The position numbers were made by a program, and so were the translations under genes. Positions 30,134 to 62,670 of a stretch of 64,000 nucleotides of DNA are shown piece by piece. The notes under the pieces are model-generated. The model had not been told where the DNA came from, searched no databases, and saw only the letters and a program-made list of their open reading frames with translations. The DNA comes from Paraspadella gotoi (taxonomy: Eukaryota; Animalia; Chaetognatha). Positions within the stretch are counted from its first letter, which is position 1; each line of letters starts with the position of its first letter. The DNA is taken from NCBI GenBank assembly GCA_051294375.1, contig CM119263.1:30381376-30445375 (forward strand). Reading direction: 5' to 3'.

Positions 30134-30324
30134 CTTAAATTAAAATTAAAATTAAAAATACTTAAGGATATAAAAAGACAAAAAATGATAATTACTAAGA
30201 ATGATATAAAACTTAAAACCTACTGTACAAACTGTAGAATTTATTTAAATCGATTTAATAATCATTCTTAATATCAATAAATTAATATAAAATAATTCAT
30301 TATTATATAAATAACAATATATTT

Positions 30325-39379: not shown

Positions 39380-39560
39380 TTTGAACTCGCGCCACGCAAG
39401 GCAACACCCGGCCGCGTTTTTGTCCCTCACTTGTTCATCGTTATTTACAATGTTTATCGAAATTTATCCCGCGTCTGGTTTTAAACACGTCCCTTCGAAC
39501 CGCTTCACCTGATTTTCTAGTCAATTTCGAAAAATCCGGTCCAAGAAACCGTTTAGGTCG
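39380..39560. promoter_or_regulatory. Probable bidirectional promoter between PAIP2 (-) and LIN37 (+)
   Basis: CpG-rich patch between divergent genes; a pyrimidine-rich minus-strand 5'UTR exon with a GTAAGG donor near 39085. Confidence 0.4.
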
Positions 39561-39563
39561 ACA

Positions 39564-42074
39564 ATGAATTCGTCGACGCCAGAACTAAAGGCGTCGCGTC
39601 ACCGCCTCGACGCGGCCTTACAGGGTGCTCTTTCTCGCCGACGTCCGAGTTCCGGGAGTGACTCGGAAGACGACGGAGATGGAGACGGTCATAAACACGG
39701 AAGGAGGCCGCCGAGGAAGCGACGGAGGAAGGACGAATACGACGACGGAGGTTCTTATCATTACACGTGAGAAAAATCGTTTCCGTTTTATCTTAGCAGT
39801 AGTGACGTGACTGATAATACTAAAATATGGGCTGCCACCTGAAACGTTAAATTACAAAATCATTAGTTTGCTTGTTCTAAATCATAAATGACGTACCGCC
39901 AACTTTAATCAACGTTTTAAGCATTAGTAAACTTTTTGTTACGGTATTGGTGCCATCTCTATTTGACGATTTCTAATTTTGCCATTTGACTCGACTCTCC
40001 CGCGCTCCATCCCTTCGCAGCTACGTGATGAAGCTATTCGATCGATCCGTTGACCTCGCGCAATTCGGCGACTCCACGCCCCTTTACCCAATCGCTCGGG
40101 CCTGGATGCAGAACCGGCCTCACGATCGACGCACGCGCACGGCCGCCACACTCGACATCGACGTGGAGAAACGCGATGCGTCGTTAGAGGGCGACAGTGG
40201 CGAAGGAAGAGACGTCGCGCTGGAAGTGGGCGCCTCGGTGAGTTCGTCGCTACGACGATCACATTCCAAGTAATCCGCTTTTTATTATTTTCTATCGCCG
40301 ATAGGGCGCGTCCATTTCCTCTACTGGTATTCCCGATTGCCACGCCCTCCCACCGCCTAACGAGAGCGTCGCTTCGGCGCCTTTTCCGGTCGTCACGCCG
40401 TCTCAGTGGCCCAAGGAAAGTTTTTTCGTCCACTCGGATTTGGGAGGTGAGACGAAGGAATGATGATGATGATCTACAAATTACATATCTACATATTGAT
40501 AAAGAAAAACATCGATTTGGGAAACCGTGCTAATTTTATTTAGACCATGCATTCAAACCATTTAGCTGGTTCATTATTCAAGGCCAGAGAAATTGTGGTG
40601 AGGTAAAAAATTATTTACAAATAAGAGAAGGTGAGAGGAAGAGGAGGAGACTCAGAGAGAGAGAAAGAGAGAGAGAGAGAGAAACTTTCAACCAAAAAGG
40701 GATTAATCCCTCATCCCCCTCCCCCCCTTGTTCTTCGTCCGGGATGTAGGTGGTCCAGGATTGACTTCCATGCATCTGTTTTCACGTATGCTCCTTTGTC
40801 TTTGTTGAGCCCTTTGCCTGGTCCACAATCAAAATGACGAATCCAAAGAGCTTCTTCCACTCTTAGATGGTGCTTGAGCATTCTTTGATATTTGATTCGT
40901 GGCTGAGAGATGATTTCAGGTTCCCAGATGAAAGGGGATCGCAATGCTCTCGATGTTGTGTCAAGCCGGAATGACGCCAATTACCCGACTCGGCTGCTCT
41001 TGGTGTTCTGCCGTTCGAGTTTCAAAACTACGACAGGTTTCTCCAATGTATCGAGCCTTAGGAGAGCAAGAGCAACGAAAGCTATAGATTCGCGTCCCTT
41101 TTTTGGCGACGGCTTTTTGTTTGGGGCGCAGAGGATGTTTGCCAGCGTCTGTCCGCTCCTGCTAAAGAGTGATGCTCCTGCCTTTTTAAAAGCTCTTTGC
41201 AGTTGTTGGGTGATACCTGGAAGGTATGGAAGGCAGTTCAGCAAAAAGGTTTGCTACAGTTGGTTGTTGTTGTGATCGTTGTAGTACATCTTGTTGTTGC
41301 TGTAGTTGTCTTTGTTTTCGTTTTATCTGATGGTGGTATTCATCAGTAATTTTTTGTAAAGTCTTTCTGTTATGGCCTTGTCTTCATATATGTCTAGGAT
41401 AAGTTTTTTTTCTTTTTCCAATAATTCCGTTGAGGAGCATAATCTTTTGGCACAACAAAGCTCACCCTTGAGTGTTGATATGTGGACATTAGGATGGTGA
41501 CAGGATTGCGGTTTCAGGGTAACGTTTGTCGCTGTTGGTTTTCGGTAGACAGAAGTTTCAAGGGTTCCATCATCTTTTTTTTTTTTTTTTTTTTTTTTTT
41601 TTGGACTAAAACGTCCAAAAATGGAAGTTTTCCATCTTCTTCCAATTCTCTTGTGAAGCGAAATAATTTTTTACCTCACCACAATTTCTCTGGCCTTGAA
41701 TAATGAACCAGCTAAATGGTTTGAATGCATGGTCTAAATAAAATTAGCACTGTTTCCCAATCGATGTTTTTCTTTATCAAACTACTCGGTGCATGAGATG
41801 ACACTTAACAATATATCTACATATTGTTGTTGTTGCCGTCGATGTTATAAATATAATTCTTGGATTTCTTTTATTTTAAAGAATCGTCTCCCTTCGAACC
41901 TCCTCCTCCGACCGGACCACCTTCCGCCAGCGACCTCTTGACGGGACACTTGGGTCGATGGCGCGGCGTCCGTGACTCTTGGCGCCGACGCTCTCTCGCC
42001 GTTGAGGCCCGTTATTCTCGCAGCATGGCGCTCTTGAAACGCATGTTTGACGAGAGTCAGGCTTCATTAGGCTG
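39564..42074 (+). CDS. LIN37: LIN37, DREAM/MuvB core subunit
   Basis: [32 protein letters not shown] and C-terminal [18 protein letters not shown]; four exons. Confidence 0.92.
40499..41812 (-). mobile_element. 5'-truncated, decayed Penelope-like retroelement in LIN37 intron 3
   Basis: Minus-strand RT C-terminus ([26 protein letters not shown]), linker [17 protein letters not shown], and GIY-YIG-like end ([15 protein letters not shown]). About 120-bp inverted repeat at 40496-40616 / 41661-41780. Direct repeat ATATCTACATATTG at 40485 and 41813. Confidence 0.88.
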
Positions 42075-42227
42075 ACGCCATTTTCGGGATCGAATTCCCT
42101 CGCAACTAATTTTTTTGTTTTTTAAGTTAATTTTTCCGTTTTCGCATTGAATATTTAACATTTATTGTATTTTGAACTCTTCTTATCTCTATTTCTTAGT
42201 TTGTTAAGTAAGGAACTGATAAAAAAA

Positions 42228-43530
42228 ATGCCTCGAGCTAAAAAATCAACGAGGAAGACAGCGACGGGAGCTCGGAAGACCGGCACCAGCGAATTCCCTC
42301 CACTGCCTGGTTAGCGCTCTGTGTCTTACACGTTACTTATGTTATTGTATGTAATATATAATGTATAGTAGTATTCAGAATATTTTATTCGCACCTTGCG
42401 TCTCGTCTCGTCTCGTCTAATGTTATCTCCTGCGGATTCCCCTCAGGCTCCAGAGAGGATCGTCGGGCGAAGCTGGACATGTACCTCAAGGATTTCGATG
42501 TTCAGGTTGAGAGCAGAATTCGCGAAATGAAGAAGCAGCACAAGAGTTTGATCAGCAAATTCGACTCCGACTGGCGACTTTACAAGATGAAGATTCCGCC
42601 GGAGGTTAGAGTCGAAACTCCTTTTTCTTCCATCTGCAAATTCTTCGCAAGATCTTTATTTCTCACTCTTCCTCACAACCGTCACTTTTCCCCTTAGGTG
42701 ATGTCGATGACTCTGGATCGTTTCATCCACGAATTCGACGGCGACGTCTCCGTTTATCACCAAAAGATGGCGGCGTCGCCGGACGAGAGCATCGATAACC
42801 TCGTCGACAACCTTCTCGACGCCGATCTCGAACCCAAACGCCCCTCGCCGTCCAACTCCACCTCCTCTCTAGGCCGCTCGGACGAAGAGAACGCTGAGGG
42901 CGCCCCCGCGGCTTCCCTGCCGCGGCTGTTGGGCACCCCGCCTCTCCCTGGATTCGACGCTGCCACCCCTGCCGCAACAGGGACTCAACGACGACCCCTC
43001 GCCGATTTCCCACCGGCCAACGTTCGACCCCCCCGCCTATCGGAAGAGAACCGCCCGCTGAGCAAACCCGTCCTCGTGCACGAGTCGCAGAAGGGAAGCC
43101 CTTTGGTGCAGGTGGGAACGATGCTGCGGCGTTGTTTGTCGGAAATAGTAAGGTGTTTTAGGTTATTGAACTGTATTATATTTATATTTGGTTGTTCCTT
43201 TGTCCGATCCTGTACCGTACATGTTTTTTTACGTGTCCGACTCTCAGCTGATCGAGGAAAAAAAACGGTGAATGTTAGTTAGTGAATGTTAGTGAATGTT
43301 AGTTTTAGTTGGTTGTACCTTCATGATTTAGTCTCATTATCTATTTAATAAAGTCGGTGATTTATTAACATTTTTTTTTCTTTCTTCAGTCATTGGACGA
43401 AATGAGTTCTCCTGAATTGCAACGAGTCATTTCGCGAATCTACAAGAGTCGATTGGAGAAGAAGGAACGCGGACAATCGGTCACGGATTCTAAGGGAAGA
43501 GAAAAAGTTGATGCCGTTGTTGGCTCCTAA
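42228..43530 (+). CDS. CDCA8: Borealin (chromosomal passenger complex subunit)
   Basis: Nbl1/Borealin N-terminal-like KLDMYLKDFDVQVESRIREMK..KMKIPPEVMSMTLDRF and SQKGSPL motif; four exons. Confidence 0.78.
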
Positions 43531-43882
43531 CTTTATTCCTTTTATTTTTAGATTTCGTAGCACAATTTTTTTAGTCGGATGGACGCCGTTTTATTTTTCT
43601 TTTTTTCTTCGGTGCCTTATTAACCGCGATAGTTGCCGTTTTTAAGTAATTTTCTGCTTGCTTTTTACCGATTCTGTACGTAGATCCCCCCCCATTTTTT
43701 TCTTGTATAAAATGATAACTTTTTGTTAGCGACAAAAAAAAAAGCTTGTTATTCGTTGCTAATCGTTATTGTTACTTTCGGCAATTAGCCGATTCCAAAT
43801 TGAAACATATACTTCATTGTAAATGCTTATCTTATAAAAAACCTAATTATTAAAAGGTTTACAGGTGATACTACTTTCTGAA

Positions 43883-46114
43883 ATGAACTCTCCCAAAACA
43901 AAAAAGAAAAGACCCAGCGACGATTTAGACGACGGCGACGACGAAACTCGGTCTCATCCTCGTGCGATCGAACCTAAGGTCGCCGAAAACGACGAGGCCG
44001 TTGAGGTAGCATCGAAAACGAATCTCGACCGAAATGGGACGCATCGCGACCAAAGCGACGCTCCCGCTGATGACGACGATGACGCCGAAGTTGCCTCAAA
44101 TGATCGAAATGCGTCGGAATCGTTCGTCGCGGCGGCGGATTCTCAGGAGGACAGCGTCATAGCGACGGATTTGCCGGAAACAAACCTTTTGCCGACGAAA
44201 GAGGAAGATTTCTCGGAATTTCGCGGCCTTCTGGATTTCGGTTATGACTTTGACTCTGAGGGAAGACTACGCGACCTCAAAACTGGAAATCCTTTTCAGT
44301 TTGCGAAGTTCGGGAGCAACAAAGCTAAGAATCAAAGAAGATACGAGGCTCTGGGAGAGATCGTCACTGAACACGTGTGAGACAAGAGATAGTAAATTTA
44401 TTTAAATATAAATTATAATACGTAATATTCGTAGAATTTGAAATACACGACTCATCACGTTCTCTTTCAGTTTCTCCCTCCTCGACTCCCACGGCCTCCG
44501 ACGCATCCAACTTCCCGTCGACGCCTCCGACTCGGAAGCCAAAGGCTTCGTTTTCGCCACGAGTGATTTTGAAGAGAATCCGAATCTCCTTGTCCTCGTC
44601 CATGGCACCGGAGTGGTATATTGGACATTGAATAAGATTAAATGTACATTTAACTTCGATTACATAACTAATTTTCATCCAGGTTCGCGCTGGCCAATGG
44701 TCTCGTCGACTCATCATCAACGACTCCCTCGACTCGGGGTCTCAACTGCCCTACATTCGCGAGGCCGTCGCCCTCGGATTCGCCGTCCTCGTTCTCAATA
44801 CCAACTACAACAAAGGTTTCGTCGAGGGAGATGATCGGCGGAAAGAGTCAATTCGAGGAAGCGAGACGGCGGAGAAGCACGGCCTCTACGTCTGGCAGAA
44901 TTTGATCATGAAGAAGATCAAGTTGGAAAGAGTCGTCGTCGTTGCTCACAGGTGAGGGACCCTACGACAATGTGTTCGTGTCAATAAGAATAGAAGAATG
45001 ACATATTAATAATAATAAGAATGTGGCATAATGAGAATAACGACATCAAGACAAACGATCCCATTAGATTACGAGGCCTTGGACCTGGACATGAAAATTA
45101 TTTCACTTATCCCAAATGCTGCAATATGCAAATTAGATTGAATAATTCAATCTCATTTTATAATGGATAATAAGTTCATTCCTTGAACCTAAATACCCTA
45201 AAATTTAGAGGCATTCTAACATTATTATCTTGTCATACATTGCTATATTCCTATATCTTGTATTAATCTTCATAACAAAATCCTCAACTTATTTTTGTCT
45301 TGAGTTTCGGCGGCGTGGTCACCGTCCGCGTCGCCCTCGCCTTCCCCGAATCTTGGATCGACAAAGTCGCCGCCGTCGCCTTCACCGATTCCGTCCACTC
45401 GGAAATCCTCCTCAAAGCAAATCTCAAGATCGGAACCTGGTTCGCCGACAACAGGTTTCTCAATCTATGACTTTCTTAAAATTGTTGTCGGTCATGTAAC
45501 CTTCAGTCGTGACCCGGTGGCTCTCGACCATCAGGTACCGGGATCGATTCCCAATGGTACTTAACCTGCGGGAAGCGTGAGGACGGCCGTAAACCGTCCA
45601 CTGGAAGCAGTGTAAGGCGATTTAAAATCCGGGGGGCATGTCGTGTGTTATTAGAATCAAGATCAACATCTCATGAAGCCTGTTGTGTGTTTGAGAGAGA
45701 GACACGCTATTGTTATCAAGCCAAAACAAAACAAAAACGAACTGCGATTAATTTCTCTCTATTCATCGAGAAACTTTCAAGCCAGAAACTGAATCTTTCC
45801 TAGCCAATAATTAATACCCTACGTTAATTGCTTACCTGTCTTTTTAACATTTTCTTTTTTAAAAATTAAACTGTTTTTAAACATTTTCTCTTCTCTCTCC
45901 CCTTCACCCCGGAAGTTTGAACTGGGTGACGTCGAGCGAAGAGATCGACACCCCCGTCGACTCTAGCGCCTCTATGGGCGTGGTCCCCCGCGTCTCCGCC
46001 GGCCATACGCGCCACGAGAACACCTCATCCTCAGCCTTCGCCTCCATCTTCGAGTTTTTCACGCGGAAACTGCGAAAGGAGAAGGAAGACGCGGGTGGTG
46101 AATGTGGGGATTGA
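43883..46114 (+). CDS. FAM172A: FAM172A/ARB2A cotranscriptional regulator (Arb2 domain)
   Basis: [63 protein letters not shown]. Confidence 0.92.
45509..45630 (+). mobile_element. tRNA-derived SINE-like element, family A (internally deleted head)
   Basis: GTGACCCGGTGGCTC..GACCAT..TACCGGGATCGAT.CCCAATGGT shared with the element at 6628. Confidence 0.55.
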
Positions 46115-46607
46115 GATGACGGGGATGTGAGGGGAACTGGGGAAAGGAAGACGCGGGTGGGGAATCTGGAGAGTGGGGATTGAGAATTTAGGGAATGTAG
46201 GGGAAATTGGGTAAGGAAGACGATATTTCGCAAAGGTCTTTCACAAATTTTGAACAAACTCGTTTATTCAATTATTTACAAATTAATTATACATCTTCTC
46301 ATGTGTTGAAACGTATCGTTATTTGTCATTACCGATAAAGGTTTCTTGAAGTTTCGTGGCCTTTTACCAATTTGTTGATCCCGTTGCAACTTATGCATTT
46401 CATGTTTTACTTATAATTCTTTAATATTTACTATTTACTTCTTTCTTTTTCAGTTTTAGCGAAGTTCATTAGATCGTGAACCGTAAGAAAAAATAAAGGA
46501 AAACCGTTAAAACTTAATAATTGTCTTTTTACCGAATTTCTGATTGTTAAAAAAAAGACCAAAAAAAAAAAACCCAAAAAATAAAAAAAGAATACAAATT
46601 TTAAAAA

Positions 46608-49600
46608 ATGGTAGAGAATCGCGACGACTACGATTCAGACTCTCGAGATTCGAGCGAAGAGGAACCCGACTTCAGTGACCCGGAAAACTTCATCGATCCC
46701 GTCACCGACGACGAACTTCTCGGCGACATCCTCAAGAAGAAGCCCAAGGAGGAGTTCGGCATCGACTCTTACATCGTCGTCGACAACATTCCTCAGGTTC
46801 GTCTCCCATTTACATGTTGCGGTCTTATTTCTTTTTTGGATTTACATGGCTTGATCTGATATTACTTGTGGGTGCAACCAATATAAAAATTATAAACTTA
46901 TTAAATTTACTAGCTTTGTTGACCCTAACTTTGGATAGTCTATGGTGGGTTAAGTCCTCGGCTAAATTTTACTTTCGCGGTTTTGGAAAAACTATTAAAT
47001 TACCTAATTACCCTAACCCTAAACCCAGTTAACCCTAAACCACCCCTAAACCACCCTTAACCCTAACCCCTCCCTAACCCCGGTTGGCGAAAGTAAAAGT
47101 AACCCAAGTCGGGCTTATAATATAAGATAGTAACATCATTAACTAATTTTTTTAAAGCAAAAAAAGTTGCATATTTGTTTGCACGGAATTGATGGAACGC
47201 TTCATTTTACCCATCCCCCCTCTTTTCTCCCCCTTGAATCCCAAAAGGTTGGAACCGATCGTCTGGAGAAACTTCAAAATGTCATCCGCCGAATCTTCTC
47301 GAAATTCGGTCCCATTGAGAGCGAGCATTATCCGATGGAGGGGGAGGGCGAAGACGCCAAGACCAAGGTTGGCGGTCGAGGCCATCTTTGTCGTCGTGGT
47401 CGACTTTTTCATTTGCGCCCTTCTTACTTTTCCCATCTCCAGGGCTACATCTTCATCGAGTACAAGAACGAGCAACACGCGGCGGAGGCGGTGAAGGCGA
47501 CCAACGGCTACAAACTGGACAAGACTCACACCTTCGCCTGTAACGTATTTTCCGATCTGGACAAGTACGAGAAGATCGAAGATGAGTGGCGGGAACCCCA
47601 GCCCCAGCCTTACAAGGACCACGGCAACCTTAAGTCCTGGCTGCTTAACCCGGACTGCGTCGATCAGTTCAGCATCATTTATGAGGGTAAGGAAAGGGGA
47701 AGGTCAATCTAATTTACTGTGTACTCAACTATTTACGGAATTTAAAACTTCAAAGGACCCCGTTAAAATTTAAGGCCTAATAAAAAGAATTTTAACTTAA
47801 TTATGAAATCGAAATAAACGTGTTGATGTGAAAAATAAATTAAAAAAAAAAAAAAACGCGCGAATAAAATTGAAAGAAAAAAAAAAACGAAACTCGAATC
47901 GGATGTTATTTTTTGTCCCTTTTTCTTTCTCCCACTCATTCTCTGGCAGGCGGAGAAAAGACCTGCGTCTACTCTAACACTCAACCCGAGCCTTCCGTCG
48001 TCATGCAGCGCAGCAAGTGGACAGAGACTTACCTCCGTTGGTCGCCCAAGGGGACTTACCTCGCCACCTTCCACCAGCGCGGCATCGCTCTCTGGGGCGG
48101 CGACAACTTTCAGCAAATCCAAAAGTTCGCCCACGTCGGCGTCCAGCTTATTGACTTTTCTCCCTGCGAGAGGCGAGTTATTATGAAGCTCTTTTCCTTC
48201 AGTCTTGTCGAATAAGTGTATTTGCATATTACAATACTAATTTGTAAATCGGAAATCAAGCTCACCTTAATTAAAAGCCACTTGAATCCGTTTTGGTTAC
48301 CAAAAGCGATCTCGATCACCTTGGTTGATTAAATGTCACGTGAAAACGTGAGAGAGAGTTGAGTCTCGACTCTGGAAGACAAAAAAGGCTTTGAAAGACC
48401 AAAGAAAATTCTTGACTTGGAACCAACCTTTTACTAGTTAATAGTTTGATTTGGTCTTTTCATGCCAATAATATAAAAGGAAAACAAATTATTTCTGGAA
48501 GTAACATAATATTTATTTTTAAGTGCTTATTTAAAAATAAATATTATGTTACTTCCAGAAATAATTTGTTTTCCTTTTATATTATTGGCATGAAAAGACC
48601 AAATCAAACTATTAACTAGTAAAAGGTTGGTTCCAAGTCAAGAATTTTCTTTGGTCTTTCAAAGCCTTTTTTTTTTTTTTTTTGGCTCTTTATGTGAAAC
48701 TATATTAGATGTACTTTTTATTCCCTCATGCCTTTTCCTTTAGGTACCTCGTGACCTTCTCCCCCGTTCAGGACAACCACGAAGACCCTTCGGCCGTCAT
48801 CTTCTGGGACATTCGCACCGGAGCCAAGAAGAGAGGTTTCCACTCGGAAAAGGCCGTCACGTGGCCCATGTTTAAGTGGAGCGGGGACGGGAAATATTTT
48901 GCAAGGTCTGCTAACAAATTATTCTAATCAATTCACTAACATATGAATTGATTGATGTTGTAATAGTGTAGTCGTTTTAATAATGTTTTTTCTCATTCTT
49001 TCCCAGACTCGGGCAAGACGCTTTGATGGTGTACGAGACTCCCAGCTTCGGACTCCTCGACAAGAAGAGCATGAAAATCCCCGCCATCAAAGACTTTTCC
49101 TGGTCGCCCTCCGACAACGTCGTCGCTTACTGGGTCAGACAATCGGCTCTGTCTTCGTTGGGATGTTCCGGCCTCTTGTCTTCTATGCAATTTTCCACTC
49201 TCTCTCTCTCTTTTTCGATTCAGGTTCCGGAAAACGGTGACGTTCCCGCCCGCGTGACCCTGACCGAGATTCCCTCGCGCAACGAACGCAAATGCAAGAA
49301 CATCTTCAACGTCGCCGACATCAAGATGAACTGGCACAAGAACGGAGACTTCCTTTGCGTCAAGGTCGACCGCTACACCAAGGTCAAGCGGGAGAAGGAC
49401 GGAAACAAATACAGGTGAGGAAAGGAAAGGCGAAGGGGAAAATCATGACGAATCTATTTGGCATTTTTTGGCAGTAAGCTTAGCTGGTTTAGATTTACCG
49501 GCGACACTGCGATCTTTACTAATTTTGCCGTTTCAATCATTAGCAATAAATGAAATTGAATTAAATCAATTAAAAGCTATTATCTTTATCATTATCTTTC

Positions 49601-50876
49601 TTCTCACAGCGGGATCAGCTACCACTTTGAAGTCTTCCGAATGCGCGAAAAGCAAGTCCCCGTGGACAACGTCGAGTTCAAGGAACCCATCTCCGCTTTC
49701 GCCTGGGAACCAACCGGGTCCAAGTTCGCCGTCATCTGGGGAGAGACCCCGCGCATCAATGTTTCTTTTTACAACGTCAAGGCCGAAGCCAAGGTAATGT
49801 TTGGAGAAACAACTCTCTAATTCTATCCTTAATAATTAAATCTTTTTTTTTTTTTTTTTTTTTTTTTGCCAGGTGGAGCACCTTAAAACGTTAGAGCGAC
49901 GACAGGCCAATCATCTCTTCTGGTCGCCCGCGGGGAAGTTCATCATTTTGGCCGGACTGAGGCAAATGAACGGCGTCTTGGAGTTTATCGACACTTCGGG
50001 TCAGTTTCATTTATTTCATTTCATTTGCCATTGGCTTCTTTGCTTTGATTTTAAGACAATTTAGGACAATTATTTAACAATTACTTAACTGCTGATTAAA
50101 TCTTAAATTTTAAACCTTAAGCGATATAGAATAGAAATGCATCTATATTTAATCCAGACGTCACTATGCAAATGTGATTGACATTTGAAATGATCTACAA
50201 ATTACTTTGCTCCACCAGACATGACTGTGATGGCATCGAATGAGCACTTCATGGCCTCCGACGTGGAGTGGGATCCGACCGGGCGATACGTGACGACGGC
50301 CGTGTCCTGGTGGGCGCACAAGGTCGACAACGCCTTCTGGATCTGGACCTTCCAGGGCCGACCTCTGCAAAAGCACCCCATGGACAGATTCTGCCAATTC
50401 CTTTGGCGACCGCGGCCCCCGAGCCTCTTGTCAGGTAGGTTATCCATTTTGTGGAATTGTTTAAACTTTTTTACTTCATTTGCTTCACTCTTCCCACAGA
50501 CGAGCAGCGCAAAGAGATCAAGAAGAACATGAAGAAATATCAAGGTCAGTTTGAGCTCAAAGACCGGATGTCGCAGAGCAAGGCCTCCAAGGAAATGGTG
50601 GAGAAGAGGAGGAAGATGAAGACCGACTTCGACTCTTGGCGCGCTAACGCTCAGCAAGAGTACGAGGCCAACAAGGTGAGCATTTCACGAAGAGGTTAGT
50701 TTTAGTTAAGTTCAACTTTTAATTCAGTTCTCGGTTATAAATATAATTCGCAGGCGTGGCGCGTGGCGGCTCGGAACGGGTTCGACACTGACAACCTCAC
50801 CTCCAACATTCAAGATTTCGACGAAGAAACCGTGGAATTTTTGGTCGACACGAAAGAATACATCGTCGAGGAGTAG
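46608..50876 (+). CDS. EIF3B: Eukaryotic translation initiation factor 3 subunit B
   Basis: [13 protein letters not shown] ([29 protein letters not shown]), [49 protein letters not shown]. Confidence 0.97.
46957..47115. mobile_element. Short element with inverted ends and degenerate (TAACCC)n core, Helentron/HINE-like
   Basis: TTTTACTTTCGC and GCGAAAGTAAAA flank CCCTAA-type repeats. Confidence 0.5.
48381..48672. repeat. Perfect inverted repeat (142-bp arms, 8-nt loop) in an EIF3B intron
   Basis: 48381-48522 is the reverse complement of 48531-48672; loop GTGCTTAT. Confidence 0.95.
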
Positions 50877-50877
50877 A

Positions 50878-50880
<3 letters not shown>

Positions 50881-50928
<48 letters not shown>
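50881..50928. repeat. (TC)n microsatellite directly after the EIF3B stop codon
   Basis: Directly visible. Confidence 0.95.
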
Positions 50929-50931
<3 letters not shown>

Positions 50932-51299
50932 GGATTGTTTTAAAAAAAAAAATTAAAAAACTGCGTTGGCTCAAGACGGAACTTTTAAAAGTACCTCACC
51001 TTCTAAAATACGACTACTTCTGGTGGACAGTTTAGAAGAACTACATCGGATTATAATAAAACAAATACTTTACAGAAAATTTGTTTATTTTCTAGGAGTT
51101 TAATTTTTAGTTAAACGTTACCGATAATTTTTTCCCTTTTTTTTGGGAAAAGAAATCGAATTTTCTTTTTTTCTCCGTCGCGATTCATTAGTAGCGTTTC
51201 AGTTTTTCCATTTTACTTTTCTATTCACATCTTTTTTTTTGGTTTCTTTCTAATTAATTTTTTTTCTTTTTTAAAAACAAGGTAAATTATGTTAGATAA

Positions 51300-51420
51300 T
51301 CGGCGTCGGTCGACGTCCTGCGCATGCGCGGACCCTCACGTGAAACGCGTCTTTAGTTTTAACCGCTCATTGGTCGCGTCCCGTCCACGCGTCCCCAATC
51401 CCGTACCGAATCTGGCCTCT
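51300..51420 (+). promoter_or_regulatory. Probable promoter upstream of DCLRE1A
   Basis: NRF1-like TGCGCATGCG (about 51319), E-box TCACGTGA (about 51336) and ATTGG box (about 51369) in a CpG-rich patch. Confidence 0.5.
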
Positions 51421-51823
51421 TTGTTCGGACGCTTTTCTGGCCACTTCCATGTTCCCTTTCGGTTACGAGCTTTGTCGGAAGCGCGGAGGGATGACGCGAA
51501 GACGGAAACGGCGAAGCGATGGAGATTTCGAAGAGAGGATTAAGCGATTTATAAAAAACCTAAATTAAAGTTTACCTAAAGGTTAATTTAATTACGTATA
51601 TTTACACCTTTCTCTTTGTTTGAATTAGTTTCGAATTTTCCGTCGCGTCGAGGTCTCTGGTTTAGTTTTAGATTGCAATCGAGCAGCGACGGTGCGTCCT
51701 TCATTTTTCTGTCTTTCATCTTTCGCGCCGGATGCCGACCGCCGTCTTTTTTTTTTCGGTTTTACGATTTTACGATCTGATGATTTCGAAATTTAGTTGG
51801 CGAATTTTTACAGAGAATCGGCA

Positions 51824-54800
51824 ATGGCCGATGATGACGACGACGACGATTTCCTTCCGACGGCGAAAAAACTAAAACGAAGCTTCGTTTCGCCGCGACG
51901 AATTCTCAGATCAGGAGCCTCGACTCGTGAGGGTTTGAAGACGAATTTGGAAGAAGCGTCGGCGACTTTGACGGCTGCATCGACGAGTTTGTCTGCTTCT
52001 TCGAGGAATTCGTCGGCTCCGTCGACTTCTGTTCCCTCGGAATCGCTCGCCGACACCTCGGCGTCCTCCGTCTCTTCTCCTCTTTCTCCTCTTCTCACTT
52101 CCCGACCACGCCGAACTATCAAGACGCCCCCGCGAGTCGTCGCCATCGACGACCCAGATTTATTTGACACCGAAGATGATGTGGCCTCTACAAGCCCGTC
52201 CAAACGGTCGGGCTTCTGCCCCTTTTGTCAAGTTCCCTTCTCGGCTTTGTCCGCGGTGGAGACTTCAACGTGGCACGTGTCGCTTTGTCTCTCTAGTCCG
52301 TCCAAGTCGGTGGACGAATGCCCTCTGGGGACCAAGTGTGACTCTACCATTCCGAGGTAATTATTTGATAATAATTAACTCGCCCAGAACTCTTAGTAGT
52401 AATTTACATGAAATTTCCTTAGTCATTACAAGAAGTTCACTCACGCGACTCTCGCGCGATGGCGCGACGCTGGCGGGGCAGCAGTTGCTGTGGATGCCGA
52501 CCGATTGACAGGAGCAGCAGATCAGGCGGACGAGGAAAAATCGGGGGAAGCGGCGCTACCGCACCCCGATGGAGGTTGCTTGAACGCCGCAACAGACAGC
52601 AGCACGTCGGAAATAAATTTGGGGAAAAAGGGAAATAAAAAAACCGGAAGACGAAAACTGGAAGATTTTTTTGGTCAACCGATTCCGACGCCGAGGGAAA
52701 CTGACGACGCCTCGGCGCTAAATCAGACCGAGGTCTCGGCGCCGACTAAGACTAAGACGCCGGGAGACATCAGCGGTGTTCCGTCTCGAGGATCGGAAGA
52801 AAGAGAAATCGATGAGCGGGAAAAAGCGACGGAAATGAAGACGGAAGTGACATCAACTCTCGTTGGCAAGGAAACGCGAGACGCGAACTCAAAACTGGAG
52901 GAAGTCGTTGAGAAACTTGAGGAAGAGGAGGAAGAGGTGGAATTTTCCATTGGGGCGGAAATGGAAGACGTTTTGAAGGAGCGCGTCGACGAGAATGACG
53001 AAACTGTCTCGCGGACGGAGCGATCAACACCAAATCGCGATCGGACGAAACAAATCTCCATCGCCGCCTTCTTTCCTCCGCCCCGCGTCGACGCAACCGG
53101 CGGCGGGCCCTCTTCTCGCCCCGAAAAACGAGAGGCCAAATCTGAGGCCAAAGGGTTCATCTCTCAGGCCAGTTCCGAGTGGCTGAAAAGCAAGAAGCCC
53201 ACCTTTCCCATAGCGACCGACAAATCCAAGCCGACAGCAGTGGCGGGCGGGAAATCGGAAAAGCCGACGGCGAAACGGGGCGAGCCGAACAGATCGAGAC
53301 CATGCCCTTTCTACAAATGGATTCCTGGAACCAGTTTCACTGTCGATGCGTTCAGCTTTGGACGAATCCCCGACTGCTCCGCCTACTTTCTCTCACACTT
53401 TCACGCCGATCACTATAAAGGCCTCAACAGGAAGTTTGATCACGGAACCATCGTTTGCAGGTGAGTCTCTGGCGGAGAAAAAAGAAAAACTATCTTAGAC
53501 TTAGTATAGGACTAAGCTCTGACGAACAAAGCCCGATATTTTTTTAATATATTCTTATACCGGCCAAGGTAGAATGATGGCAATATTGTTAATATTAAGT
53601 TTCAAAAAAATCCAACCATAAATATAGAAAATATTAACCAAAATCTTTGGAAAATCCACCCCTTCTTTGGAAGATTTTCGCCATAGAAGATTTTTCCAGA
53701 ATCTGACTCCCGGTTGAAAACTCTTAGAATTCTGATCGTTAGCTGCTCTTTTACTTTTACTTTAAATAAAAATTTCACCAAAATGGACTAATTCACTTTA
53801 CCATGATCGTATCATATCAAAACAACCAAATAAAATGTAAAGAAAAATTTTGAGAGCCCTTCAGACACTTTGCCAAAGGATTCCAAAATTAGACCTCATT
53901 TGTTAAACAGGAACATACCTCAGTCACGTTTATATTGTTTTCAAGGAAAAAAATCCATTTCATTTCTATATAAAATCAGAGATGGAAAATTTTTCCATCG
54001 AGAAGCAGTCTATTTGTTCTGGCTTGTTTGATATCAAGATGATGATGATTTGACAAGAGAAAAAAAATGCGAGCCCTTCAGATGCAACAGGATCGGAATC
54101 AAGTGTTTTTACATCGATATTTTACCAGAATTTTTACCAGGAGCGTTTATATTGTTTGGTAGTCAGATTTGAACGAAAATCTCCATTGAAAAAGTCTTCC
54201 TCGATCTCTAAGAACGACGTATACTCCTACTTAGTATCTTTTTCTTTTCCTTAAACTACATTTGCATATTGTAACGCTTAACTTTCTCTCTTTATAAGTA
54301 TTTTTTGTCTTGCTCATCCCGGTGAAATTTAACCTTTATACCTTGGTTATTGAAATAAATCTTGGTAGAGATAGTTTTAGTTTACGGTATGTTTGTGGTC
54401 CATTTCACTTCACTTCGATGCGCGATTTGGGAATTAAACTATTTATGACGGCGACGATGTGAATGAAATAAAATATTTGATATTTAGACTTTTGATTGAA
54501 GAAAGACAGAGAAAGATGGACAAAAAGCGAAAGGTAGAGAGAGAGAAAGACACACTTATTCTTCCACCACCTAAATTTTCTCCCGTCCCCCGCGCAGTCG
54601 CGTGACGGCGAACTTAATTAAACGCCGCCTCGGCGTTTCTCCCTCCCTCATCCTCTCCGCCGGCGTCGACGCCGCCCTCGATGTCGACGGCATCAAAGTG
54701 ACGCTCATCGAAGCCAATCATTGTCCCGGCGCCGTTTTGTTCCTCTTTCTCTTGAAGGACGGGAGGGCGTTCTTGCACACCGGAGACTTTAGGTTAGGAT

Positions 54801-56198
54801 CTCTTTTTTTTTTTCGTCGAGAGATGTTGGACGGTCATTCAATAACTGAGCTATTTCTCCCCTGACTTATGACAGACTATGACTAGGACCTGGTAGGTTT
54901 AAGACAAGCTTTTATTCAAGACTCTCTCACAGTCGTTTATTAAACTGTAACGTCCGTTTCCCTCTCAGGGCGGACGAGACGATGTTGCGACATCCGTCCC
55001 TTCAGAGTTTCGTCGGACCGAACGCGATAAAGAGGTTATTGGCGTTTGTCTTCCTTTTCGTCGTTGTTTTCCTTCTGTCAACTTCTGCACAACCCTCTTC
55101 TCGGAATCTCTCTACAGGCTAGACAACGTCTTCCTCGACACGACCTACTGCGACCCCCGCTACGATTTCCCTCCTCAACGCGACGTCGTCGAGTTCGCCG
55201 TCGACGTCGCCGTCGCCGCCGTCGCCGCGAGACCCAAGACCCTCTTCGTCTGCGGGAGCTACACCATCGGAAAGGAGAGAATATTTAAGGTGAATGGGAT
55301 AAGCGAGGGGGGGGGCGAAGAAGAGTATCGGATTAATAATAAAACGATATTGGGAGACAGCTTGAATAGGTAGTTAAAGATTAAAGGGGTAAGCGAGAAA
55401 GGGTGAGTAAAGATAAATTAACGAGAGAACTTTACCTAATTTCAATTTTGTTTGTTTAAAACTCTCAATTAAATGTTAGAATAGATTTTAAACGAACAAC
55501 TTCCCTCCCTCTCCAAAAGGCCATCGCCTCGTCTCTCTCCTCCCGCGTCTTCGTCCGCCCGGACAAACTCCTCGTCCTCCGCTGCATCGACGACGACGAC
55601 GAACTCCAGCGCCTCCTGACGAGCGAGAAAGACGCCGCCGCCGTTCACGTCATCCCCATGCACCTGCTCAACGTTCGATCCTTGGCCGAGTATTTGGCGA
55701 CGCTGCGACCGCGGTTCGATAACGTCTTGGCCTTTAAACCCACCGGTTGGACGTTTGAGAGCGAGAGGGGGAACAGGTGAGAGATGAGGGGCTTCTGTTG
55801 TCATTTGATCATCTGCATATCCGAGCACTTGATAAGAAAGTTAATGCGGTGCAACAGATTAAAATTATCTTTCTTATTTTTTTCTTCTAGAATTTAATAC
55901 ATATTTTTGGCGTCGATTCTATAATTTCGTCCCCCCCCCTCTTTTTCTCTCCAGCACCATTCGTCACTCCTCCTCTTCCTCTTCCGCCGTTCTTCGTCGC
56001 ATCGTCCCCACCCGCTCTGGACCCGTCACCGTCTACGGCGTCCCCTACAGCGAACACTCCTCCTTTGACGAGTTGCGTCGCTTCGTCGTCGCCACGAGAC
56101 CCAAACGAGTCACGCCCACCGTGAATGTGGGCGTGGCCGAGAAGCGAGATGCCATGCAGGCGACGTTTCGGGAGTGGATGCGCGATGCGGATTGTTAA
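51824..56198 (+). CDS. DCLRE1A: DNA cross-link repair 1A (SNM1A), MBL/beta-CASP nuclease
   Basis: UBZ-like [16 protein letters not shown]-like [24 protein letters not shown]-like [57 protein letters not shown]. Confidence 0.95.
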
Positions 56199-56542
56199 GC
56201 GGAGAGATGGGCAAGGGCGTCTTCGTGCGGACTCTAGTCGATTTTTGATCTTCTTATATTTCAATATGTTTTGTCATTTTTATTATTGAATTCTTGTTTC
56301 GCCCTTTATTTTAGATTAAAAAAAATTGCCATTTTAGAAATTAAATTACCGTTTGTTTTAAACTTTGAATTTTATAATATGTTGCTCTCGTCCCGATATT
56401 GGCGACGAATTCTGATTGGCCTTTCCTTTTTTTAGACAAGAAAGAACTGTGTTTTTCCTCGACTCAAAATCAAGGATGATCTAAAGATTCCAATTGATAT
56501 TTTTTTTTGTTCAACAGACTTTGATTAAAAAACTCGACCAAA

Positions 56543-59500
56543 ATGGTTTTAATGTACGCCTTGTTCGAGCATGCCTCCGGTTATGCTCTTTTCCTTGTTA
56601 AGGAATTCGAAGAGGTAAGGATCGGCCTATTTCCTTTTGAAATTCTTATTTTTTTCCCAACGCCCTCACGAGTATGTTCTTTCTTCAGGTGGGAATGCTT
56701 TTGCCTCAAGTGGAGGCCGGGGTGAAGGACCTCGGGCGATTCCAAGGGCTCGTCCGACTCACCGCCTTTAGCCCCTTCAAGAGCGGGGCCAACGCGTTAG
56801 ACAACATCAACGCCATCTCCGAAGGGATCCTGCATGAGGACTTGAAAAACTTTTTGGAGGTTCAGTCAAATGAGACAAAACTTTAAATGGATTTGCATAT
56901 TGCAATAATTTAATACTTTAGTATTATAAAGGTTGTAAGACTCATTAAGTGAATTGTTATTTTATTTACTTATTATTTAAAAGTTGTTTTTGTAAATTTG
57001 TAATAGTTAAAATTCTTCCTAACAATACATTGCAATGATATAAAAATAATTATAATTACAACAAATTTTCTCCACAGACTAACATTCCTGCTAAATCGAA
57101 AGACGGAAGCGACGTCCGTCTGGGCGTCGCCGACTCTAAGATCAGCGCCGCCATTTTCGAGGGAATCGGCATCAAGTGTCAACACTCCGGAGTGGTGAGC
57201 AATGATGATGATGATGATACTGAAGGCTGATCATGATGATTAACCATCCCCCCTTTCAGGCCGAGGAGATCCTCCGCGGGATCCGCCTTCATTTCCCCCA
57301 TTTCGTGACGGGCCTCTCCCCGACGGCCGAAGCCAAAGCTCAGCTGGGTCTCGGCCACAGCTACTCGAGGGCGAAGGTCAAGTTTAATATCCATCGCGTC
57401 GACAACATGATCATCCAGGTAGAGAGAGACAGAAGGGTGTGCCCGTTGAGTCCCAATTCGATCGTCGTCCGCCTTTGAGTAAATCGCATGTCCTCGTCTC
57501 TTCAAGGCCATCGCCCTACTGGATCAACTGGACAAGGACATCAACACGTTCGCTATGCGCGTGCGCGAGTGGTACTCGTACCATTTCCCCGAACTCGTCA
57601 AGATCGTTCCCGACAACTACACTTACGCTCGCGTCGCCTGCTTCGTCAAGAGTCGCAAGGATTTTGGGGAGGAGATGGTGGAACCGCTCGAGGAGATTGT
57701 AATGGACAGCTCCAAGGCTAAGGTTCGGATGTCAGTGTGGGACATAAACTCTCGTAAAATTAGAAAATAATTAGAAAATCAGTTAAAAAATTAATCGCTA
57801 ATTTAATTTCCTAATTTATTAAATTTTAGGCCGTCTACGACGCGTCCCGCATGTCGATGGGGATGGACATCTCCGAGATCGACTTGATCAACATCGAACG
57901 GTTCGCCAAACGAGTCGTGGCTTTGGCCGATTATCGCAAGACTCTCTTCGAGTATCTCGCCGATCGTATGAAGGTTAGGACTGAGCTTTGAATTGATCCT
58001 TTTATTTCTTTTCGATCTCATTGTCTGTTTTCCTCTCTCCAGATGTGCGCACCCAACTTGGCGTCTCTCATCGGAGACCTGGTGGGCGCGAGGCTGATCT
58101 CCCACGCGGGGTCATTGACTAACCTGGCAAAGTATCCAGCCTCAACCGTGCAAATCCTCGGCGCGGAGAAAGCACTTTTTAGGTTGGTTATTTCTCTCTT
58201 AATCTTTTTCTTATTGTCTACGACCTTAACTAGTATTTATTACGGTTTTGCACGCCTTATTTTAGGAGCCTTTAAGATTTGACTTAATCTTATTTTATCT
58301 TTCAGAGCCCTCAAGACCCGGGGGAACACCCCCAAATACGGGCTCATCTTCCACTCGACCTTCATCGGTCGCGCCGGCGCCAAGAACAAGGGCCGCATCT
58401 CCCGGTATCTCGCCAACAAGTGCTCCATCGCCTCGAGGATCGACTGCTTCTCCGAAAATCCCTCTTCAGTCTTCGGCGACCACCTCAAGCAGCAAGTGGA
58501 GGACAGGTATGTCCTTTTGGTGGAATCGCCTCTTTAGATTCGCCTTTGACTCAAAGTTTGAGCGTATCGATAAATAATTATAAATATTAATATTATTTAA
58601 TTCCATTACAAAGGCTGAAATTCTACGAGGACGGGGCTGCGCCAACGAAGAACGTGGACGTGATGAAACAGGCCTGCATCGAGTACGCGTTGCAGCAGGA
58701 GAAGGCGGCCAATGAAGAGAAAAAGAAAAAGAAAGAAGAGAAGAAGAAGAGAAAGAGTCAGGCGAACGAAAGTAAGGCGGGGGGGGGGGGAATTTGGATC
58801 GATCAATGAAATCAATCATTTCAATCGATCTTTAATATCTCACTTCCTCAGCGTCGGCTACCAACGGCGACGTCGAAACGAAAACGGAAGAGGAAGTCGC
58901 GACTCCGAAGAAGAAGAAAAAGAAAAATGAGATGAATACTAGTGAGTTTTGCGATGTGGCGATAACTATTCGGTATTAATAAATAACTAAGAAATATTGT
59001 TAATTCTCCAGCATTGGAGACGACGCTGGACTCGACAACGAACGGTGACGTCGATTCCGCGAAGAAGAAGAAAAAGAAAAAGAAGGATTTGGATTTGGAT
59101 GAATCCGCCGATGATGATGATGATGATCCCGCGGGTAATGAGTTTGGTTTCCATGGGTTACGTTCAAGTGGTATTTGTAAACATTTCATTTTCATTTTAT
59201 TTTCAGAAAATTTGACGAACGGCAAGAAAAATAAAGAGAAACGTAAGTACATGGCGTCTAGTGCATTGTCTTGTCTTTCCAATGTCAATCTATCAATTGC
59301 GGTGTTGGTGATTTGTACAATAAAATTTCAGGATCGATCTCGGAATCTACGCTGGATGAGTCGATCGTGACGCCGAAAAAGAAGAAGAAGAAGAACAAAG
59401 GGGGAGAAGCGGATTCCACGCTCGATCAAAGTAGGTTTCAATTTTTCTATTTTTTTTTATTTACAAATTGATTTTTTTTCTTCTTTTTTCATTGAAGGCG

Positions 59501-59948
59501 CGGTAGCGTTAGAGACTCCCGACGGGAAAAAGAAGAAGAAAAATAAGTCGGTGGACCTCGACTCCTCCATGAATATCAGTCAGTATTTTTTTTATATTAT
59601 CTTTATCAAATTTAACCATTAAAACTTAATTTTTAAACAAATAAATACTTTTATCTTTTGCTTTTTTAAGGCGCCCAGTCGGTCGCGACGACCCCCGGCG
59701 GCGACGCGAACGAATCCGCAAAGAAGAAAAAGAAAAAGAGCAAAAGCCTCGAATCTTCGAAGATCGGCGAGGGTGAGGCCGATAGAAGGATATATATTAA
59801 TAATTGATTTGGCTTAAAAGTAATTGTCTCTTCTAATTATTTTTCCTCCCACTTCGCAGAATCCACGCCCAAGAAATCTCCGGCCCTGGACCAATCTCTT
59901 TCTTCGGAAAAGAAAAAGAAGAAAAAGAAAAAAACATCCGACGATTAA
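56543..59948 (+). CDS. NOP56: Nucleolar protein 56 (box C/D snoRNP)
   Basis: [67 protein letters not shown], Lys-rich tail. Confidence 0.97.
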
Positions 59949-60502
59949 GAAAAAAATCTTTTTTCTCTCTTAGACTCGAAGCGCGATTTTCTAGTTGTTT
60001 AGACAATCTGCCGTCGTTGTTGTTGTTGTTGTTAATCATGAGTTAAAAAAGGTCGCGCGACCTTATTGGCCTTTTGAAGCGAGACGAAAATTATTTCCCC
60101 CCCCTTCTCTTTTTCTATTTTCTCATTCAATCTTACCACCCGCTTTGTTTTGTTATTTCAGCCGTTTCGTTTCAGCGATCGATCGAAGAGAAAAGTAACT
60201 GCGCGTTTCAATTTGTAAAAAAATTAAAGAAAATCACAAAAACTTGGGAGGACGACCGTCGACCGGACTTCGTTTAGCAAATTCGCCAAAGAATAAAAGA
60301 TTGAAATGCGTTGATAATTATTCTGCCGACTAAGAAGTGATTGTCGCTTCCCCCTTTCGACTTTAATTTTCAAAAAAGAATTCGGCCAACGGAGATTTTA
60401 TCGGATTATTTAAATTACGTCCTCTGGAAAACGTGGGAAAAGATGTTTGGCGGGAAGTAAAAAGTTTAAATCCCTCGGATCAATCGAAAAGAAAAAGGAA
60501 CA

Positions 60503-62492
60503 ATGTATCGGACCCTTTGTCGCGTCTGGTGGGCGGGGCTGCCTCGACTCACGCCGACCAAGTCTCCGTCTCTCTCGTCCACTTTATCTCGCTGCTGCTC
60601 ATCCTCTTCCTCCCCTCCTTCCCTCTCCACCTCTCTCGAGACGATCCCAAAGAGCGAGATGTACTTTAAAGCGGCCGGACGCGTCCACCGCGAGGACAGA
60701 TGCACTTACCACGGGACTGACATGCACCTGCTTTTGCCCGGTGTCGACGACGTGAAAAATCCCATGACCAATATAAAAAATCCTCAGGTGCCGTTGTCAA
60801 CGGCGTTGAGCCAATGTTTGCCGGGGAGAGGTTGTCGTTTCCCCATGAATCTCGGTCAACTTTGGCCATTTTGATTATCCCTTTATATTCATTTCCCCAT
60901 CCTGGATTTTGACCAGGTGATCGAAGATTTATTTCCCATCGAATGCGACGTCCTCGTCGTCGGCGGCGGCATCATGGGCGCCAGCGTCTCCTATTGGCTG
61001 GCGATGATGCGGACCGGCGCCAACATCGTCTGCGTGGAAAGGGATCTCACCTACACGCAGGTTGTCGCTCGGTAACTCTAGATCCTCTTTCCCTTTCGCG
61101 ATGATCGCTTGTCCCCCTAGAGATCGTCGCTGCCCCACCCCCCACCCCCCACTCCCCAATCGATATCTCGGGCCCGATAAGGCAGAGGACCGCTCAATGA
61201 CTCATTCAGGCGTCGACCGTGTTGTCCGTTGGCGGCATCAGGCAGCAGTTCTCGCTGCCAGAGAATATCGCCATGTCAATGTACGGCGCAGAATTTCTCC
61301 GCGACTCTTTCCGCCATCTTTGCGTCTACGGGGAAGAACCTCCAGCCATCGGATATCATCCTCAGGTTTTTTAAAAAGGAGCGACGGGATTGAACCCGGT
61401 ACTCGCGGTTGGTGAGTTTAAGACAAAAGTTTAATCTCTTCCTCCTCTTTCCCCAGGGTTACCTCTTCCTAGCCTCGACTGAAGACGGCGCTCGCGACAT
61501 GGAGATCTCCCACGGCGTCCAGCGGCGCATGGGGGCGCAAGTCTCGCTCATGTCTCCCGAAAAACTCAAAAGCGAATTCCCGTGGCTCAACGTAAACGGA
61601 ATCCTCCTGGGATCCTTTGGGCTCGAGAACGAAGGCTGGTTCGACCCCTGGGGCCTTTTGAACGGCTTTAAGTTTAAGGCCAAATCGGAAGGCGCTAGAT
61701 TTCTTCAGGGTAAGTCTCACTTGTTTCTTCGTTGTTCTTTGTTGTTTTTTTTTTACTCCTCTCTCTCTTCTCTTCTCTCTTTTTCTCCAGGCGACGTTCT
61801 CGGCTTCAAATTCATGGATCCCGCTGCCTCCAACGGGATCGACCGCATCGGAGAGGCCTACGTCCGGCGCCACGACGGCTTGATTCAGCCTCTCCGCTTC
61901 AGCCGCGTCGTAAACGCGGCCGGCGCTTGGTCCGGCCGTGTCGCTCGCCTCTGCAAGGTTGGCACCGACGACATGGACGACCCCAATGATGTCCGCACGG
62001 TCAAGCTGCCCGTCGAGCCGCGCAAACGCTTCGTCTACGTCCTCCACTGCCCCGACGGTCCGGGGCTCGACTGCCCCATGGTGGTCGACCCGTCCGGGCT
62101 CTACTTTCGCCGCGAGGGCCTCGCCGGTTTCTACCTGTGCGGAATTTCGCCAAAGCCCGAAGACGAGCCCAGCGTCGATAATTTGGACGTCGACTATGAA
62201 TATTTTAACGAGGTTTGTGCAGTGTGCAAAGTTTGTAGGCTGATTGGTTAGTTTTTGTCATTAGGGTGAAAATGGTTCAACTCTCTCCTTATTCTTGTCC
62301 CGCCTTCGCCTCCAGGTGGTCTGGCCTCTTCTCGCAGAGCGAGTCCCCGCTTTCGAAAAGTGTAAGGTGAAAAACGCGTGGGCTGGATATTATGACTACA
62401 ACTTTTACGATGAAAACTGCGTCATCGGCGGTCATCCCTACTACAGAAACGTTTTCTTTTGCACCGGATTTTCAGGCCATGGAATTCAGCAG
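60503..62492 (+). CDS. FOXRED1: FAD-dependent oxidoreductase domain-containing 1 (complex I assembly factor); last exon not found in the window
   Basis: Mitochondrial-targeting-like N-terminus, [63 protein letters not shown] followed by a GT donor. Confidence 0.93.
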
Positions 62493-62670
62493 GTGGATAA
62501 GGGAATGAGTGGAAATAGTTTGTGGAATTAGTGGAAGTATGTGGAATTAGTTGATTCCAGTGTAATTGGTTTAATGCATATTGTTTAATTGGTAGAAATA
62601 TGTGGAATGAGTGGAAATATGTGGAATTATGTGGAATTTCGGAAACCTGTGGAATTAGTAGAAATATGTA
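62493..62670. repeat. (GTGGAATTA)-type minisatellite at a FOXRED1 intron start
   Basis: Many degenerate GTGGAAT units. Confidence 0.85.

What the first reader, a model, noticed from the sequence alone, without database searches (positions are those of the whole stretch)
39564..50876. Candidate eukaryotic operon (LIN37-borealin-FAM172A-EIF3B) resolved by SL trans-splicing
Seen: four unrelated genes are co-oriented, with stop-to-ATG gaps of about 150, 350 and 490 bp, in a window where other intergenic gaps are kilobases. The spacers are T-rich, lack the CpG-rich promoter patches seen near 39400 and 51320, and have a mostly pyrimidine-preceded AG before the ATG (42199, 43864, 46453/46459). About 150 bp is very little room for a 3'UTR, poly(A) site, promoter and 5'UTR. 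Known: nematode, tunicate and flatworm operons look like this. Inference: polycistronic transcription plus spliced-leader addition, possibly in a lineage where it is undescribed. It would also link a DREAM subunit to a typical DREAM target (borealin).
Basis: partly seen in the sequence, partly recalled or inferred. Interest (0 to 1): 0.8.

Follow-up and report, generated by a model that had tools for sequence, protein, structure and literature searches.

The report
Arrow-worm housekeeping gene operon
Four unrelated, expressed housekeeping genes sit head to tail 150-500 bases apart in a likely arrow-worm genome and are likely transcribed as one RNA that spliced-leader trans-splicing would cut into separate messages, an arrangement already well described in arrow worms.

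Summary
The four genes are real, intact and co-oriented (LIN37, borealin, FAM172A, EIF3B; stop-to-ATG gaps 152, 352, 493 bp). RNA contigs show 16 of 21 modelled introns. The organism is very likely a chaetognath. Its EIF3B groups (100/100) with two transcript contigs that begin with the last 26 and 23 bases of the published chaetognath leader SL2.0. The borealin RNA contig starts exactly at 42200, the base after the predicted acceptor, and an RNA contig runs unbroken across the borealin-FAM172A spacer. No leader was seen on this organism's own RNA, and single polycistronic molecules were not shown. Chaetognath operons resolved by spliced leaders are published (PMC2481426; PMC12460157: 18% of genes). 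The scan noted a similar operon elsewhere in this genome (e1-10588163). Verdict: likely operon, an ordinary new member of a known kind.

The parts
39380..39563 (.). G+C-richer non-coding patch, likely promoter at the head of the unit; the next gene upstream lies on the other strand
   Evidence: 46% GC, 9.2 CpG/100; minus-strand coding exons at 36541-37956; promoter role inferred
39564..42075 (+). LIN37 CDS, 251 aa, exons 39564-39766, 40021-40237, 40305-40446, 41882-42075
   Evidence: Pfam LIN37 E 2.9e-20 and 2.2e-07; open model; introns 1-2 seen as joints, intron 3 from pieces of one contig; C-terminus matches nearest homologues
42076..42199 (+). Spacer 1: LIN37 3' end, then pyrimidine tract and acceptor AG at 42198-42199
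   Evidence: 17 of 19 pyrimidines, score 8.2; borealin contig starts at 42200; no canonical poly(A) hexamer before the AG
42200..43530 (+). Borealin (CDCA8-like) from likely trans-splice site 42200; ATG 42228, 264 aa, three introns
   Evidence: Pfam Nbl1_Borealin_N E 1.9e-09; 3 of 3 introns seen in RNA, contig begins at 42200
43531..43864 (+). Spacer 2: borealin 3' UTR, likely proximal poly(A) site near 43733 (TATAAA 43706), further signals at 43833 and 43849, weak acceptor AG 43863-43864
   Evidence: contig to 43713, short records over the A-run 43734-43743, FAM172A contig colinear from 43734; hexamers; acceptor score -0.9; poly(A) sites inferred
43883..46114 (+). FAM172A/Arb2-domain gene, 418 aa, four introns
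46115..46459 (+). Spacer 3: FAM172A 3' UTR, then strong acceptor AG 46452-46453 (alternative 46458-46459)
46608..50876 (+). EIF3B, 693 aa, eleven introns (one GC-AG at 48173-48743)
   Evidence: Pfam RRM_1 and eIF2A; 10 of 11 introns among the joints shown; 84-86% identical to the two SL2.0-bearing homologues
51290..51520 (.). G+C-rich patch before the DCLRE1A-like gene: possible own promoter and so possible end of the unit
   Evidence: 58% GC; the window's only NRF1-like word, an E-box and CCAAT boxes (motif names recalled); an RNA contig runs colinear from 51292 into the CDS
51824..62500 (+). Three more co-oriented genes (DCLRE1A-like 51824-56198, NOP56-like 56543-59948, FOXRED1-like from 60503; end approximate): possible extension or a second operon
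   Evidence: Pfam DRMBL, Nop, DAO (gene names recalled); gaps 947, 344, 554 bp; RNA laid only to 52400

Best explanation
Four intact, spliced, co-oriented housekeeping genes in a likely chaetognath genome likely form an operon: one promoter near 39400 would drive a long pre-mRNA, and spliced-leader trans-splicing at the acceptors before borealin (42199), EIF3B (46453) and likely FAM172A (43864) would give each downstream gene a capped 5' end while the upstream message is likely polyadenylated within about 0-130 bases of the acceptor. Shown: gene structures, gaps, expression, an RNA break exactly at 42199/42200, RNA across spacer 2, and SL2.0 on EIF3B mRNA of two relatives. Inferred: the single promoter, leaders on this organism's own mRNAs, the poly(A) sites and the 3' end of the unit.
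For: (1) L001 and L002, the two closest EIF3B matches among 21 loci, begin with the last 26 and 23 bases of SL2.0 in Table 3 of PMC2481426. None of the other 19 loci has the leader's 3' word in its first 130 bases, and L001's last 14 leader bases are not in the window. (2) Window EIF3B is 84-87% identical to these proteins against 41-62% to the other rows, clade support 100/100. (4) An RNA contig bridges 43864/43865 with 131 letters upstream, and unlisted short records fill the A-run between it and the borealin 3' UTR contig. (5) Spacer 1 leaves 124 bases for a 3' UTR, poly(A) site and promoter. (6) In Paraspadella gotoi nearly half of genes are trans-spliced and 18% operonic, enriched for protein-metabolism and broadly expressed genes.
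Against: No leader-bearing loose end was seen in run X1: none among the 16 of 101 rows shown, and none at 42200 or 43865 in the complete table. The FAM172A contig runs colinear through 43865, and that acceptor is weak. Nothing was laid on 42056-42199, so continuity from LIN37 to borealin is not shown. Contigs cannot show single molecules. A leader on EIF3B does not prove an operon: most trans-spliced P. gotoi genes are not operonic. Spacer 3 was not resolved and holds CCAAT words. All RNA evidence for this organism comes from one run of one study.
Confidence: 0.72

Rival explanations
1. The genes are monocistronic neighbours in a compact region. Each has its own short promoter in the spacer or the upstream 3' UTR, and SL trans-splicing only removes a short outron; or the unit is hybrid, with an internal promoter for EIF3B.
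For: Only 18% of P. gotoi genes are operonic although nearly half are trans-spliced. Spacer 3 is 493 bp with two CCAAT words. Colinear RNA upstream of 43865 could be an outron or an overlapping UTR. The nearest homologues come from single-gene-sized contigs: 967-1131 nt for LIN37, 2586 and 2716 nt for EIF3B.
Against: Spacer 1 is only 124 bases to the acceptor and 28% GC; spacers resemble introns in G+C and CpG density, unlike the two flanking patches. RNA records are continuous from the borealin 3' UTR into FAM172A. CCAAT occurs 126 times in the window. Single-gene contigs are also what resolved operons give.
Confidence: 0.2
2. LIN37 is cis-spliced from a donor at 42056 to the acceptor at 42199, giving a dicistronic LIN37-borealin mRNA with a shortened LIN37 tail; no leader is needed there.
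For: The LIN37 contig ends at exactly 42055, just before a GT, and the borealin contig starts just after the AG. GT makes up 3.8% of positions there.
Against: No joint 42055-42200 was seen. The donor scores 2.1, below 20 of 21 leave-one-out true donors. The three top-scoring LIN37 homologues that have a full chaetognath-like C-terminus end at the same column as the unspliced genomic form, with the same Ser-Gln pair.
Confidence: 0.04
3. Plain compact gene packing with independent promoters and colinear 5' ends, with no trans-splicing at these genes.
For: No leader was seen on this organism's contigs; short gaps also follow downstream.
Against: SL2.0 on EIF3B in the two nearest relatives; contig start exactly after the AG; acceptor 46453 beyond chance.
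Confidence: 0.04

Closest known systems
Chaetognath SL-resolved operons: Spadella cephaloptera RPS14-PCNA (PMC2481426; section 12 whole, other passages) and Paraspadella gotoi operons (PMC12460157; passages)
   Same: Unrelated housekeeping genes head to tail; SL2.0 on the nearest EIF3B mRNAs; short distance from poly(A) site to acceptor (3 bases in RPS14-PCNA); P. gotoi has 1,470 validated operons of genes less than 250 bp apart, the longest with nine genes.
   Different: Other genes. Leaders were not seen in this organism's own RNA. Whether P. gotoi's operon table lists this gene set could not be read (supplementary spreadsheet too large).
Tunicate operons (Ciona, Oikopleura; PMC7986045 passages)
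   Same: No operon-specific leader; very short or absent intercistronic regions, as the signals at 43833/43849 next to acceptor 43864 would give.
   Different: Different phylum and leader; spacers here are longer than the 1-60 bp reported.
C. elegans SL2 operons (PMC7986045 passages)
   Same: About 100 bp intercistronic distance, as from the likely proximal borealin poly(A) site to 43864 (about 130 bases).
   Different: C. elegans uses a dedicated SL2 for downstream genes; chaetognaths have no operon-specific leader.

Membership tests
Chaetognath SL-resolved operon | Organism is a chaetognath | tested here: met
   EIF3B groups 100/100 with proteins whose mRNAs carry chaetognath SL2.0; indirect, since no named chaetognath sequence was in the tree
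Chaetognath SL-resolved operon | Two or more co-oriented genes | tested here: met
Chaetognath SL-resolved operon | Gene boundaries less than 250 bp apart (PMC12460157 criterion) | tested here: inconclusive
   Met for LIN37-borealin (124 bp, stop to acceptor) and borealin-FAM172A (RNA to at least 43713, then at most 151 bp). FAM172A-EIF3B is at most about 263 bp from the last RNA base that can be placed (variant at 46147, 43 letters from a contig end)
Chaetognath SL-resolved operon | At least one gene carries a spliced leader | tested here: inconclusive
   Met for EIF3B orthologues in 2 of 2 close relatives; not seen in this organism's contigs, which break at the acceptor 42199/42200
Chaetognath SL-resolved operon | Polycistronic pre-mRNA from one promoter | not testable with these tools
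   Only assembled contigs were on hand; one bridges spacer 2, which does not show single molecules
Chaetognath SL-resolved operon | SL RNA gene elsewhere in the genome | not testable with these tools
   No genome held; none in this window by pattern or Rfam
C. elegans SL2-type operon | Dedicated leader for downstream genes | not testable with these tools
   No leader reads for this organism; published chaetognath data find no such specificity
DREAM-regulated gene set | CDE/CHR element at the promoter | tested here: inconclusive
   One CHR-like hexamer at 39380 among 85 in the window, no E2F-like match upstream of LIN37 (motifs recalled)

The most novel reading that the evidence does not exclude
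The first junction is a switch: acceptor 42199 takes either a spliced leader (freeing borealin) or a cis-splice from the donor at 42056 inside LIN37's last codons, which would trim the DREAM subunit's tail and keep borealin on a dicistronic message, at the head of a polycistron that may run through seven genes.
Probability: 0.07. Interest if true: 0.5.

Novelty: new member of a known kind. Interest (0 to 1): 0.2.

Why it matters
It adds one more likely chaetognath operon and shows that SL2.0 is on EIF3B mRNA in two further, unnamed relatives. It gives base-exact sites (42200, 43865, 46454) for testing how poly(A) cleavage and trans-splicing are coupled in a phylum without an operon-specific leader. 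It does not extend operons to a new lineage.

Tried and rejected
No whole genome was held, so no SL RNA gene search or genome-wide gap statistics. No RNA holder was on record; X1 was guessed RNA and behaves as RNA (15 spliced joints shown; intron bins at depth 0-7). Runs X2 and X3 gave 2 and 5 records with matches under 30 letters: not used. The uncovered stretch 42056-42199 is not used as evidence; the tool drops some records, and the LIN37 stop codon itself lies in the hole. Contig depth was not used to rank genes. The bookkeeping (unlisted records crossing the A-run need depth of about 29-158 each, against 7.3 for the retained intron) is a rough hint only. My first guesses of organism (homoscleromorph sponge, gastrotrich) were dropped: searches gave 5 and 2 papers, none on topic by title and abstract start, and the leader match points to chaetognaths. 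The LIN37 last-exon search found nothing (0 of 119 candidates). The metagenome scan gave 21 loci, only 2 close relatives, both single-gene transcripts, so conserved gene order could not be tested. Cis-splicing 42055-42200 as the main form was rejected. CpG observed/expected does not mark promoters here. PMC2844618 was not held. Rfam: 0 matches in 64000 bases. A search for lin37 + borealin + operon gave 0 papers.

Full report
Observation. The four genes are real. Exon-wise Pfam scans (31 stretches) gave LIN37, Nbl1_Borealin_N, Arb2, and RRM_1 plus eIF2A. Models with 21 introns (20 GT-AG, 1 GC-AG) translate without internal stops to 251, 264, 418 and 693 aa. Stop-to-ATG gaps are 152, 352 and 493 bp. 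The claim that other gaps are kilobases fails downstream: three more + strand genes follow at 947, 344 and 554 bp. Upstream the next gene is on the other strand, which bounds the unit on that side.

Spacers. They are 28-32% GC with intron-like CpG density, while the patches at 39380-39563 and 51290-51520 are 46% and 58% GC. CpG observed/expected is above 1 in spacers and patches alike, so this is not a CpG-island contrast. With a matrix from the 21 introns, acceptor 46453 scores 14.1 (1 of 1000 shuffles as good), 42199 scores 8.2 (212 of 1000) and 43864 scores -0.9 (1000 of 1000). Sequence alone therefore supports only one of the three acceptors.

RNA of this organism. One run (X1, contigs, guessed RNA) held 61% of the sampled words. 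Laid on 38900-52400 it gave 26 joints, of which 15 were shown, all at modelled introns; LIN37 intron 3 follows from the pieces of one contig, so 16 of 21 introns are seen. Listed records explain every depth bin examined except two around 43664-43801. The borealin 3' UTR contig reaches 43713, short records cover the A-run at 43734-43743, and the FAM172A contig runs colinear from 43734 through 43865. So unspliced RNA across spacer 2 exists, and no leader was seen at either acceptor. Logan contigs are simplified by Minia3 with SPAdes-like heuristics (bioRxiv 10.1101/2024.07.30.605881, passages). From my own knowledge such steps remove short tips and weak links, so a missing leader says little. 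Spacer 3 was not resolved.

Organism and leader. A note of this scan on another piece of the same genome suggested an arrow worm (e1-10588163); I tested that here. The closest EIF3B proteins were unnamed transcript products. A scan with their alignment returned 21 loci; L001 and L002 encode P0002 and P0001. Their first 26 and 23 bases equal the 3' end of SL2.0 in Table 3 of PMC2481426 (compared by eye). Window EIF3B is 84.0 and 86.4% identical to them, against 41-62% to the six non-relatives in the tree, and groups with them at 100/100 (11 rows chosen from the proteins and loci in hand). The organism is thus very likely a chaetognath, and EIF3B is SL trans-spliced in 2 of 2 close relatives. 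All leaders in that table end in A; the genome has G at 42199. A leader junction would split an assembly graph exactly at 42199/42200, as seen (inference).

Mechanism. Most likely one promoter near 39400 drives a polycistronic pre-mRNA; cleavage and polyadenylation end each upstream message; an SL snRNP donates its leader to the next acceptor. For borealin the signals suggest a proximal site near 43733, about 130 bases before 43864, and a distal one beside the acceptor (hexamers at 43706, 43833, 43849), like the 3-base gap of the Spadella RPS14-PCNA operon. No upstream ATG lies between the three acceptors and their start codons, whereas the colinear FAM172A leader from 43734 has one. The single promoter, the leaders on these mRNAs and the poly(A) sites are inferred. 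The 3' end is open: the patch at 51290-51520 looks like a promoter (motifs recalled), but RNA is colinear from 51292 into the next CDS.

Rivals. Monocistronic genes with short outrons, or a hybrid with an internal EIF3B promoter, stay possible (0.2), because most trans-spliced chaetognath genes are not operonic. The LIN37 contig ends just before a GT at 42056, which suggested a cis-splice to 42199. Against it: no joint, a weak donor, and the LIN37 homologues P0022, P0023 and P0030 end at the same column as the unspliced form (4 homologues aligned, picked from 469 hits; the fourth, P0024, is more distant and ends three residues later).

What is known. PMC2481426 (section 12 whole, other passages) reports 36-nt leaders in two chaetognath species and an RPS14-PCNA operon. 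PMC12460157 (passages) reports trans-splicing in 10,197 of 21,072 P. gotoi genes, 18% of genes in operons, 1,470 validated operons, no operon-specific leader, and a longest operon of nine genes. PMC7986045 (passages) gave nematode and tunicate distances. PMC10282587 and PMC2566580 (passages) added nothing decisive. A search for lin37 + borealin + operon gave 0 papers and chaetognath + operon + trans-splic gave 15. The P. gotoi supplementary spreadsheet and the Spadella EST/BAC alignments could not be read and may list this gene set or fix the leader's exact junction. That borealin is a DREAM target in mammals is recalled; nothing here ties it to this layout.

Verdict. Observation partly confirmed; interpretation likely right in mechanism (0.72) but not new in lineage. 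New member of a known kind; interest 0.2.

Noticed in passing
window 51824-62500 (+): Three more co-oriented genes (DCLRE1A-, NOP56-, FOXRED1-like; names recalled, Pfam DRMBL, Nop, DAO) with gaps of 947, 344 and 554 bp; the last two have acceptor-like AGs at 56517 and 60175 (scores 7.6, 8.7). Possible extension or second operon.
   Followed up: partly
window 51292-51823: The DCLRE1A-like contig carries 532 colinear bases with six upstream ATGs; trans-splicing at AG 51813 would remove all six, as for an outron.
   Followed up: partly
window 48173-48743: GC-AG intron in EIF3B, seen as an RNA joint. It holds a near-perfect palindrome: arms 48376-48522 and 48531-48677, 147 nt, 99% complementary, 8 nt apart; a foldback element or an assembly artefact.
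   Followed up: partly
window 40691-41232: Inside LIN37 intron 3, an RNA contig matches with 7 substitutions and 6 gaps: likely a repeat copy expressed from another locus.
   Followed up: no
window 36541-37956 (-): Gene head to head with LIN37 that resembles PAIP2 with a PAM2-like motif (label recalled; no Pfam hit); the 39400 patch may be a bidirectional promoter.
   Followed up: no
window 24119-30139 (-): Several minus-strand exons with C2H2 zinc fingers (five finger-like motifs in 24992-26398, one in 27718-28023); gene structure not worked out.
   Followed up: no
L001:1-35 and L002:1-30: After the published 36-nt leader end both EIF3B mRNAs continue with A, then an AG and a T-run within 2-4 bases, resembling the window's sequence at 46452-46457; the exact leader end or acceptor register may vary.
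   Followed up: no
window 45556-45596 and 46978-47105: Intronic repeats hit by many X1 contigs with loose ends; the second has short telomere-like units.
   Followed up: no
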